From: Naegleria gruberi
Taxonomy: Eukaryota
NCBI GenBank assembly: GCA_000004985.1
Contig: GG738866.1
Length of the DNA stretch: 64,000 nucleotides
Direction: 5' to 3' (one strand)
Of the stretch, positions 10,483 to 17,953 are shown piece after piece. The translations under genes were made by a program, and so were the position numbers. Numbering within the stretch: the first letter of the stretch is position 1; each line of letters starts with the position of its first letter. Below the pieces are notes generated by a model, which was not told the origin of the DNA, did not search any database, and saw nothing but the letters and a program-made list of their open reading frames with translations.

Positions 10483-10555
10483 TGCCGACACCAGGGATCG
10501 AACCAGGGACCTTAAGATCTTCAGTCTTACGCTCTCCCAACTGAGCTATGTCGGC
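10483..10555 (-). tRNA. tRNA-Phe(GAA): tRNA-Phe (anticodon GAA)
   Basis: The reverse complement reads GCCGACATAGCTCAGTTGGGAGAGCGTAAGACTGAAGATCTTAAGGTCCCTGGTTCGATCCCTGGTGTCGGCA. It has the canonical cloverleaf, the TGAAGA anticodon loop and GGTTCGATCC T-arm. It is close to metazoan/protist tRNA-Phe. Confidence 0.85.
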
Positions 10556-16132: not shown

Positions 16133-17953
16133 TTAATTGAAATAGTGCTTTGTGTGTTCTCTTGGATGGAAATATAGTGGATACTTGTTAGTGTTAATGT
16201 AGAACATTGATTGGTCAGTCTCCATTTCTGGGAATTCAGAATGTTTCTTTGTGAGAGTAAAGTTTCTAATGACATTGATCAAAAGGAAATGGAGCTCTGT
16301 ATTTGCAACACGACTTCCGGGACATTTTCTTAACAAATAGTTAATACTATTACAAAAGAAACAAATAACTTACCTTGCACCAACCTATATTATTCACATT
16401 TTCAACATTTTCAAAATGAATTCGAAAGGAGAAATGTTTAGAATCAGTAAAATTAAAAAGAAACAACTTACTCCGAAAGGAATTGAAGAAAACATTGATT
16501 TTGGAGCAAGAGGGGATTTCTTTTCATGTCTCTCAGGAATAAATTCCAAAGCTCTCGGAACGTATTCATCTTTCATGCTTGGATAATAATTCATGAAAAT
16601 TGCAATAGTTTCCTTTGGTAGAATATATCCACCAATTTCAATATCAGAATTCAATTGTCTTCCCATTGTAATGTAAGCAAATGAATTGAATCTTAAAACT
16701 TCTTCAACAAATTGTCTCACCAACTTGAGTTGTTTGTATTGCTCTGGGGTGATGATTAGTCCATTTTCAGATGAAACTTCATCCAAAGCCGGAGGACCAA
16801 AAACCTCAAGGCACTCGTTATAGAGCTTTTCTTGATATTCTGGATGATGAGCCAATCTGTACAAGATAAAATTCATGATACGACTTGTAATATCCACACC
16901 TCCCTGAATAAATGTAGAGAGAACTGTTGACACCTTTTCATTTGAGTTGGTGGCTCCCTCTGCCTTCTTTACAAGAATTTCGTAAAATCTTGGCTTGGCA
17001 TTTTCTGGTTGTGAAGCTCCAAATCTTTCAACACAATATCTGGCATTGTCAATCACTTGATCGTAATAACTCTCCAATGTCTTGTACTCCTCTGTCTTGA
17101 AATATTTGTAGAGTGGGAACTTGTAATCTAATCTTCCACACAAATCAAGAATTGTGATGGCTTTCTTTGAGAAATCGTCAAGTTTGAATGGTAAACTCTT
17201 TTCAAGCTCTTCAGTCATTTTGACACCAAAGAAAATTTTCATAATTGCATCGAATGCATATCTAGAAGTTGCTTCGAGACCATCATCAAGTCTGAATTGA
17301 TTTTCACCAACTTTTACAAAGTTCTTCTTCAATTGTCTGATCAAATCACTGTTCATTTCTGTCAGTTGAGGTACCACGATTTGATCGAGAAACTCTGGTT
17401 TCATGGCAAGGTTGAAGATTTGACGAATTTCATTCCAATTCTCTTCAATCTTCATTTCAATAGGTACCATTTCATAACCACGGCTTTCTTTGTAATATCT
17501 TGAAGGATTTAGAACTGTTCTACGTTCCTCAACTCTGGCAAGATCAGCAATCCAGTATGGGTTTGAAATGATAACCATATTTTTGTTTAAAGCAGTCAAC
17601 TTGACCATCTCTCCATACTCATTACACAAATCAAGAAAATAACTCATTGTATTCTTGGAGTGTTTCTTGATATCCAGATAGTTACCAAGAATTGGAAGAG
17701 GCTTAGGGCCTGGAATTTCTCCAAATGGTTTGGCAACAGATTTGGCCACATCTACTGTACCATCCTCTTTATGATAGGGACACTTGGCTTCAGTGTTGGC
17801 AGCAACAGATGAAATAGTTATGGATTCCTTTGTGGAATCTTGGTGATGGTACAATCTATTGTTGCTGTGGTGTGTTGTTAAAACAGAGAGAACCTGTTGT
17901 AGTAGAGGTTTGTGGATGAGGGCAGCATGTCTGATGGATTTGAGTGATGACAT
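16133..17953 (-). CDS. Cytochrome P450, mitochondrial-clan-like; exons 16472..17953, 16374..16384 (11-nt micro-exon), 16133..16328
   Basis: N-terminal presequence-like region then PGPKPLPILGN; EEVLRFNSF (ExxR); FIPERH (PERF); ..IPFG|GTAAGT. The heme loop FG-VGAR-KCPG is only restored by including GTTGGTGCAAG, flanked by AATATAG| and |GTAAGTT, then AAAATGTCCCGGAAGTCGT. Confidence 0.75.
16374..16384 (-). other. 11-nt micro-exon (GTTGGTGCAAG) encoding VGA(R) of the P450 heme-binding loop
   Basis: Perfect acceptor (atatag) and donor (gtaagt) flank it. The phases (0 in, 2 out) match both neighbouring exons. Confidence 0.6.

What the first reader, a model, noticed from the sequence alone, without database searches (positions are those of the whole stretch)
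16374..16384. 11-nt micro-exon encoding the core of the P450 heme-binding loop
The P450 ORF ends at ..IPFG followed by GTAAGT. The downstream exon begins (R)KCPGSRV. The invariant FGxGxRxCxG is obtained only if GTTGGTGCAAG (VGA+R) is spliced in. That 11-mer is flanked by a perfect AATATAG acceptor and GTAAGTT donor, and its phases match both sides. A catalytic Cys-ligand loop split across a micro-exon is unusual. Getting the splice wrong would abolish the enzyme.
Basis: partly seen in the sequence, partly recalled or inferred. Interest (0 to 1): 0.6.

Follow-up and report, generated by a model that had tools for sequence, protein, structure and literature searches.

The report
Real 11-base exon in Naegleria P450
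The 11-base exon is real by sequence and comparative evidence and is needed to build the heme-binding loop of a Naegleria gruberi cytochrome P450, but the public gene model has included it since 2010 and tiny exons inside conserved P450 motifs have been described before.

Summary
The window is Naegleria gruberi. On the minus strand a P450 gene runs 17953..16133. It has three exons: 1482 nt, 11 nt (16384..16374, GTTGGTGCAAG) and 196 nt. The introns are 87 and 45 nt, and both start with GTAAGT. I enumerated every GT/GC-AG solution that keeps the C-terminal frame (11 with one intron, 63 with two). The spliced product is 100% identical to the public model XP_002677635.1 / NAEGRDRAFT_67298, so the micro-exon is already annotated. 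A 71%-identical relative on a metagenome contig has the first intron at the same site. It then reads GTTGGTGCCAGAAAATGTCC without interruption, so the 11-mer is homologous coding sequence and the 45-nt intron is a clean lineage-specific indel. The last exon is under the same purifying selection as exon 1 (dN/dS 0.11 vs 0.14). Introns of 42-54 nt are common in the window. I could reach no RNA reads. A side result: related heterolobosean P450 genes carry introns at six different, largely clade-specific positions within 45 nt of this loop. One of them has an independent 17-nt micro-exon. Verdict: observation confirmed, interpretation supported, already known as an annotation, modest interest.

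The parts
16472..17953 (-). Exon 1 of the P450 gene (ATG at 17953; 1482 nt; ends ...IPFG in phase 0)
   Evidence: ORF 16394..17953. Pfam PF00067 match. Identical to XP_002677635.1.
16385..16471 (-). Intron 1, 87 nt, GTAAGT...AATATAG. It contains no internal AG after the CTGAT/CTAAAC branch-like motifs.
   Evidence: Same position, and a similar first 24 nt, as the single intron of the 71%-identical relative L001.
16374..16384 (-). 11-nt micro-exon GTTGGTGCAAG = Val-Gly-Ala plus the first two bases of Arg in FG-VGAR-KCPG
   Evidence: Unique solution in the enumeration. 10/11 nt identical to contiguous coding sequence in L001. Included in the public model.
16329..16373 (-). Intron 2, 45 nt, AAG|GTAAGTT...TTAAC(branch-like, 16344..16340)...TTGTTAAG|. 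Phase 2, inside the Arg codon.
   Evidence: Clean 45-nt indel relative to L001. The length is typical of other putative introns in the window, 42-54 nt. No other copies in the window or in the loci fetched up to that point, L001-L013.
16133..16328 (-). Last coding exon (196 nt including the TAA stop at 16135..16133): (R)KCPGSRVANTELHF...HYFN*. It carries the Cys heme ligand.
   Evidence: dN/dS 0.11 vs L001, the same as exon 1. Pfam match runs through to residue 548.

Best explanation
This is an ordinary spliceosomal micro-exon in a nuclear Naegleria gruberi cytochrome P450 gene (NAEGRDRAFT_67298). Two short GT-AG introns of 87 and 45 nt lie 11 nt apart inside the codons for the Cys-ligand loop FGxGxRxCxG. 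Both must be removed precisely, otherwise the frame shifts or a stop is read before the heme-ligand cysteine.

The older intron, after FG in phase 0, is shared with the closest relative found. The second, in phase 2 inside the Arg codon, occurs only in the N. gruberi gene among the loci I examined. It is most simply a younger intron gained at an AG|A site next to the pre-existing one, which cut 11 nt off the start of the last exon.

Recognition presumably works by intron definition. Both introns are short and have perfect GTAAGT donors, and the micro-exon donor AAG|GTAAGT is close to the optimal U1 pairing site. In each intron the first AG after a branch-like motif is the acceptor. Because the upstream 3' splice site and the downstream 5' splice site are only 11 nt apart, the two introns are probably removed one after the other.

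Shown: exon and intron boundaries, uniqueness of the solution, homology of the 11-mer to coding sequence, purifying selection on the downstream exon, and identity with the public model. Inferred: the actual splicing in vivo, intron-definition recognition, sequential removal, and gain rather than loss of intron 2.
For: - Coordinates and translation.
- Enumeration of splice solutions: 0 of 11 single-intron and 1 of 63 two-intron solutions restore the motif.
- Pfam P450 match over residues 81-548, E 7.8e-65.
- 100% identity over 100% of the length to 'predicted protein [Naegleria gruberi]' EFC44891.1 / XP_002677635.1.
- L001 has one intron at the same FG| site and then contiguous GTTGGTGCCAGAAAATGTCCTGG; the 45-nt intron is a clean indel.
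- pS 0.68 against pN 0.17 in the last exon, dN/dS 0.11, compared with 0.14 in exon 1.
- Five other putative GTAAGT introns of 42-54 nt in the same window, with YTRAY-like motifs near the 3' end.
- None of the other family loci (L002-L007, L012-L014) has an intron in the Arg codon.
- The NJ tree puts the window gene and L001 together with 100% bootstrap support.
Against: - No transcript evidence was available. The protein collection holds no transcript-derived copy or fragment of this protein: its cluster has one member, and the next hit is 71% identical.
- dN/dS integrates over the whole divergence from L001, so it cannot exclude a very recent inactivating insertion.
- Gain versus loss of intron 2 rests on one close relative plus outgroups. 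The N. gruberi paralogues could not be fetched.
- The AlphaFold model has low confidence exactly in the loop, residues 489-501, so it adds nothing there.
Confidence: 0.93

Rival explanations
1. The 45-nt segment is a recent insertion that is not spliced, so the gene is a pseudogene truncated at ...FGVGAR* without the Cys ligand.
For: The segment is absent from the closest relative, and no transcript evidence could be obtained.
Against: The segment begins exactly with GTAAGT after AAG and ends exactly with AG, and it has a TTAAC branch-like motif 12 nt upstream of its end. Its removal restores both the frame and the homologous sequence to the base. Its length matches other short introns in the window. 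The rest of the gene is intact, and the downstream exon is as conserved as exon 1.
Confidence: 0.03
2. A single intron with a non-canonical junction, or another reading frame, restores the heme loop without the 11-mer.
For: None found.
Against: No single GT/GC-AG intron restores F..G.R.C.G. The residues VGAR are encoded nowhere else between the two exons. The relative's contiguous sequence aligns base for base with the 11-mer.
Confidence: 0.02
3. The micro-exon is real but is included inefficiently or in a regulated way. Skipping it or retaining an intron would give frameshifted, non-functional transcripts as a form of unproductive splicing.
For: Only general knowledge: very short exons can be skipped, and intron retention is the dominant alternative-splicing mode outside animals, N. 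gruberi included (PMC6142364).
Against: Both donors are perfect GTAAGT and both introns are short, so the signals look constitutive. There are no data on isoforms.
Confidence: 0.1

Closest known systems
Public gene model NAEGRDRAFT_67298 (EFC44891.1 / XP_002677635.1 / UniProt D2VEJ3), N. gruberi genome annotation
   Same: The 562-aa product is identical, so the exon structure including the 11-nt exon is the same.
   Different: Nothing differs in the protein. The record calls it only a 'predicted/uncharacterized protein'. I found no paper in the held library that discusses the micro-exon.
One-nucleotide exon in the PKG motif of Fusarium CYP621A genes (Nelson & Syed 2026, PMC12940212)
   Same: A micro-exon inside a conserved P450 motif, inferred from exon phase incompatibility. 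It is supported by comparison with a family member that lacks the intron, and it is essential for a full-length enzyme.
   Different: That exon is 1 nt, lies in the PKG motif, is conserved in 20 orthologues and is confirmed by SRA reads. This one is 11 nt, lies in the heme-binding loop, is seen in a single gene and has no read support yet.
17-nt micro-exon in a paralogue on L003 (ENA assembly ERZ2098899, probably N. fowleri)
   Same: Same protein family and same loop. Two GTAAGT introns flank a tiny exon (TCTTCCTTTTGGAATTG, L003:2613-2629), which is required to restore F..G.R.C.G.
   Different: Both intron positions differ (phase 2 in codon -3 and phase 1 in the second Gly), so the origin is independent.
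Animal mitochondrial-clan P450s (CYP11A1, CYP24A1, CYP11B2; insect CYP301A1/302A1/12)
   Same: They are the best non-heterolobosean sequence hits (24-30% identity) and the best structural neighbours (Foldseek E about 7e-19, TMt 0.76-0.80). The N-terminus has no obvious membrane anchor. The I-helix motif GGVDITS resembles CYP11A1's GGVDTTS (my own recollection of the CYP11A1 sequence).
   Different: By sequence against the PDB, CYP3A4 scores slightly better than CYP11A1 (2.5e-25 vs 5e-24). No clan-level phylogeny, targeting prediction or redox-partner evidence was obtained.

Membership tests
Cytochrome P450 (Pfam PF00067) | Significant full-length match to the P450 profile | tested here: met
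   E 7.8e-65, 219.9 bits (cut-off 22.8), residues 81-548 on profile positions 2-459 of 462.
Cytochrome P450 (Pfam PF00067) | Heme-binding signature FxxGxRxCxG with the Cys ligand | tested here: met
   FGVGARKCPG is obtained only when the 11-nt exon is spliced in.
Cytochrome P450 (Pfam PF00067) | K-helix ExxR and a PERF-like motif upstream of the heme loop | tested here: met
   E418 and R421 (EEVLR) are invariant in the family alignment, as are E474 and R475 of FIPERH.
Spliceosomal micro-exon | A very short internal exon bounded by canonical AG...GT sites whose phases fit both neighbouring exons | tested here: met
   AATATAG|GTTGGTGCAAG|GTAAGTT. Phase 0 on entry and phase 2 on exit, matching exon 1 and the last exon.
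Spliceosomal micro-exon | The exon sequence is homologous to coding sequence in relatives that lack one of the introns | tested here: met
   L001 reads GTTGGTGCCAG|AAAATGTCC without interruption. L004 has no intron anywhere in the loop.
Spliceosomal micro-exon | Inclusion seen in mature mRNA (split reads or cDNA) | not testable with these tools
   The searchable collections hold no transcript-derived sequence of this gene. A suitable dataset exists: PRJEB23822.
Mitochondrial-clan P450 | Closest relatives by sequence and structure are mitochondrial-clan CYPs | tested here: inconclusive
   Top non-heterolobosean hits are CYP301A1/49A1/302A1/12/27C1-like, and the top folds are CYP11A1/24A1/11B2. 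By phmmer against the PDB, however, CYP3A4 comes slightly ahead.
Mitochondrial-clan P450 | Cleavable mitochondrial presequence instead of an N-terminal membrane anchor, and an adrenodoxin-type redox partner | not tested
   I only inspected by eye the Ser/Thr/His/Lys-rich N-terminus, which is disordered in the model (residues 1-71, pLDDT below 50). No targeting predictor or partner analysis was run.

The most novel reading that the evidence does not exclude
The 45 nt that encode S-L-P-F-G-x-G-x-R-x-C-x-G in this heterolobosean P450 family may be a hot spot of intron turnover. Six different intron positions occur there among 11 sequenced loci (the window plus 10 fetched). Three of them define whole clades: a, phase 2 in codon -3; f, phase 2 in the Pro codon; b, phase 0 after FG. 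One more (e) is known from a single gene of a fourth clade, whose other sampled member has no intron there. Two (c, d) were added next to an older intron in single genes, creating micro-exons of 17 and 11 nt independently. Elsewhere in these genes introns are few. This would be a compact natural series for studying recent intron gain or intron sliding at a Gly-codon-rich stretch with many protosplice-like sites. N. gruberi intron 2 would be a young intron, dated to after the split from a 71%-identical relative.
Probability: 0.4. Interest if true: 0.45.

Novelty: already known. Interest (0 to 1): 0.2.

Why it matters
For this gene the finding mainly confirms that the public model is right. A gene caller that missed the 11-nt exon would produce a P450 without its heme ligand. 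More broadly it is one more example of something curators already know: conserved P450 motifs can be split by micro-exons, and phase mismatches at motif boundaries should prompt a search for them. The comparative by-product is of modest interest to people who study intron gain, loss and sliding. It shows a lineage-specific 45-nt intron, six intron positions within 45 nt across the family, and a second independent micro-exon. It needs denser sampling and RNA data before it means much.

Tried and rejected
- **N. gruberi paralogues.** Fetching the genomic loci of P0003 and P0007 failed because they are not on record. Whether they carry intron d is therefore unknown.
- **Metagenome scan.** The scan for more family loci returned only distant P450s of 21-30% identity, which were of no use.
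- **Intron 2 as a copy of intron 1.** There is a shared TTGTTTCTTTT(G)TAAT stretch, but 64 of 2000 shuffles score as high (p about 0.03 in T-rich sequence), so this is not convincing. The two L003 introns show no similarity at all.
- **Introner-like repeat.** Neither intron has another copy in the 64 kb window or in the loci fetched up to that point, L001-L013.
- **Tandem-duplication model of intron gain.** The start of the intron does not match the start of the downstream exon. Only the trinucleotide AAG is repeated at both borders.
- **Structure prediction.** The model gives a P450 fold (mean pLDDT 73) but low confidence in the loop itself, so it does not bear on the micro-exon.
- **Non-coding RNA and opposite-strand scans.** Rfam, tRNA and tandem-repeat scans and plus-strand ORFs show nothing overlapping the feature.
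- **Literature.** I found no paper on Naegleria micro-exons or on this P450 family.

Full report
**What is there.** The window (33.6% G+C) is from Naegleria gruberi. On the minus strand an ORF starting at ATG 17953 runs 1482 nt and ends ...SSIPFG at 16472, directly followed by GTAAGT. Downstream lie an 87-nt segment ending AATATAG, the 11-mer GTTGGTGCAAG (16384..16374), a 45-nt segment GTAAGTT...TTGTTAAG (16373..16329), and a 196-nt coding stretch starting AAAATGTCCCGG (16328..16133, stop TAA). Joining the three coding pieces gives a 562-aa protein with ...IPFG-VGA-R-KCPGSRV..., the P450 signature FGxGxRxCxG.

**Is it more than chance?** I enumerated all GT/GC...AG introns of at least 25 nt (single-intron solutions at least 30 nt) in 16520..16300 that keep the conserved C-terminal frame.
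- None of the 11 single-intron solutions restores F..G.R.C.G.
- Leaving the 11-mer out shifts the frame and gives a stop after 20 codons. Retaining intron 2 reads ...VGAR-stop. Retaining intron 1 reads on to a stop at 16394. All three products lack the Cys ligand.
- The spliced protein matches Pfam P450 end to end: residues 81-548, E 7.8e-65.

**Already annotated.** The spliced product is 100% identical over its full length to 'predicted protein [Naegleria gruberi]', EFC44891.1 / XP_002677635.1 / D2VEJ3 / NAEGRDRAFT_67298. The public model therefore already contains the 11-nt exon. I found no paper in the held library that discusses it.

**Comparative test.** The closest relative found is P0002 (71% identity), on a 3-kb ENA metagenome contig, L001.
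- L001 has an intron at exactly the same place after FG (TTTGGT|GTAAGTTG...TTTATAG|). Its first 24 nt resemble those of intron 1.
- After that intron it reads GTTGGTGCCAGAAAATGTCCTGGAAGT (VGARKCPGS) without interruption.
- In the DNA alignment the N. gruberi 45-nt segment is a clean indel. The 11-mer is 10/11 identical to the relative's coding sequence, and the single difference is synonymous, GCA to GCC.
- This is the same kind of 'intron-lacking length marker' argument that Nelson and Syed used for the 1-nt exon of Fusarium CYP621A (PMC12940212).
- The last exon shows pS 0.68 against pN 0.17 (dN/dS 0.11), like exon 1 (0.14). It has therefore been maintained in the frame that needs the 11-mer. 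dS is near saturation, and this measure cannot exclude a very recent lesion.

**Splicing signals.** Both introns start with GTAAGT. The micro-exon donor is AAG|GTAAGT.
- Intron 2 has a TTAAC motif 12 nt from its end, and the only AG after that motif is the acceptor.
- Intron 1 has no AG at all between its CTGAT/CTAAAC motifs and the terminal TAG.
- A crude scan of the window for GTAAGT sites at the ends of long open frames found five other putative introns of 42-54 nt, with TTAAC/CTGAC/TTAAT/CTGAT/ATAAC motifs near the 3' end. A 45-nt intron is therefore normal here.

With such short introns, recognition across the intron (intron definition) is the expected mode, and an 11-nt exon is then no obstacle in principle. 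The 11-nt spacing of a 3' and a 5' splice site makes ordered removal likely. This part rests on general knowledge of splicing and was not tested.

**Origin.** I read the same region in ten more loci of the family. The loci are probable N. fowleri contigs L002, L003 and L005; N. lovaniensis L007 and L013; Willaertia magna L006 and L012; a Logan contig L004; the ENA contig L001; and a JGI contig L014. With the Phe of FG as codon 0, the intron positions are:

| Position | Location | Where seen |
|---|---|---|
| a | phase 2 in codon -3 | L002, L007, L013, L003, probably L014 |
| f | phase 2 in the Pro codon -1 | L006, L012; inferred for P0010 from its read-through end ...VP* |
| b | phase 0 after Gly +1 | window, L001 |
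| c | phase 1 in Gly +3 | L003 only |
| d | phase 2 in Arg +5 | window only |
| e | phase 1 in Gly +9 | L005 |
| none | no intron in the loop | L004 (DNA read); P0015 (inferred from its uninterrupted ORF) |

- An NJ tree with bootstrap shows that a, f and b each belong to one clade, and that the window gene and L001 are sisters at 100%. Position e is known only from L005, whose clade partner P0015 has no intron in the loop.
- Intron d is most simply a gain in the N. gruberi lineage after the split from L001's organism. Loss in L001 is the alternative.
- L003 carries a and c together, leaving a 17-nt micro-exon (TCTTCCTTTTGGAATTG, L003:2613-2629). That exon is likewise the only way to restore the motif there. 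Micro-exons in this loop therefore arose at least twice.
- Other introns in these genes are few and lie elsewhere, around residues 200-350. The concentration of six positions in 45 nt looks non-random, but the region was chosen after seeing the data and I did not model protosplice-site density.
- I found no support for intron 2 being a copy of intron 1 (p about 0.03; nothing in L003), for an introner-like repeat, or for a tandem duplication.

**What kind of P450.** The nearest hits outside Heterolobosea are insect and other animal mitochondrial-clan CYPs, 301A1, 49A1, 302A1, 12 and 27C1-like, at 24-30% identity.
- The predicted structure (mean pLDDT 73, P450 fold, N-terminal 71 residues disordered) is closest to CYP11A1, CYP24A1 and CYP11B2 (E about 7e-19, TMt 0.76-0.80), just ahead of CYP3A.
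- By sequence against the PDB, CYP3A4 is marginally first.

**Limits.** No RNA evidence could be reached. The protein collection contains no transcript-derived copy of this protein, and the one metagenome scan found only distant P450s. N. gruberi RNA-seq exists (PRJEB23822; PMC6142364) and would settle the matter.

**Verdict.** The confidence that the 11-nt exon is spliced as described is about 0.93. The feature is already present in the public annotation, and micro-exons in conserved P450 motifs have precedent, so interest is low to modest. The most interesting residue is the intron-position series in the heme loop of this family.

Noticed in passing
L003:2541-2706 (ENA ERZ2098899, same assembly and coverage as L002, whose product matches N. 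fowleri P0008): A second, independent micro-exon in the same heme loop: 17 nt TCTTCCTTTTGGAATTG (2613-2629) between GTAAGT introns of 72 and 77 nt, at positions different from those in the window. Only this micro-exon restores F..G.R.C.G (the two passing solutions among 54 two-intron and 11 single-intron ones differ only in the first donor).
   Followed up: yes
window 16329-16471; L001:2197-2273; L002:3267-3393; L005:3088-3173; L006:2511-2550; L007:2847-2931; L012:2020-2069; L013:3493-3574; L014:2613-2652: Six distinct intron positions fall within 45 nt of coding sequence around FGxGxRxCxG across one protein family. They are largely clade-specific on an NJ tree, while other introns in these genes are few. 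This suggests repeated gain or sliding. No mechanism was established.
   Followed up: partly
window 16874-16894 (-), protein residues 351-357: The I-helix motif reads GGVDITS, with D354 and T356 invariant in the family. The residue directly after the acid, normally the conserved Thr of the acid-alcohol pair, is Ile here.
   Followed up: no
window 17771-17782 (-), protein residues 58-61: A CPYH motif (C58 and P59 nearly invariant across the family) lies between the low-complexity, presequence-like N-terminus and the PGP hinge. Its function is unknown.
   Followed up: no
window 16133-17953 (-): This heterolobosean P450 family has animal mitochondrial-clan CYPs as its best sequence and fold neighbours and has no obvious N-terminal membrane anchor. 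As far as I recall, that clan is usually described as animal-specific, so a proper clan phylogeny would be worth doing.
   Followed up: partly
L004:3-470 (-) and L005:1100-1372 (+): Additional P450 paralogues lie immediately next to the fetched family members, in divergent or tandem arrangement, so the family expands by local duplication.
   Followed up: no
L013:501-3824: The N. lovaniensis model P0012 (928 aa) fuses a Nudix-domain N-terminal part to the P450. The N. fowleri counterpart P0013 is 597 aa without it, so the fusion may be an annotation merge of two genes.
   Followed up: no
window 10483-10555 (-): A tRNA-Phe(GAA) gene, the only Rfam or ARAGORN hit in the window.
   Followed up: no
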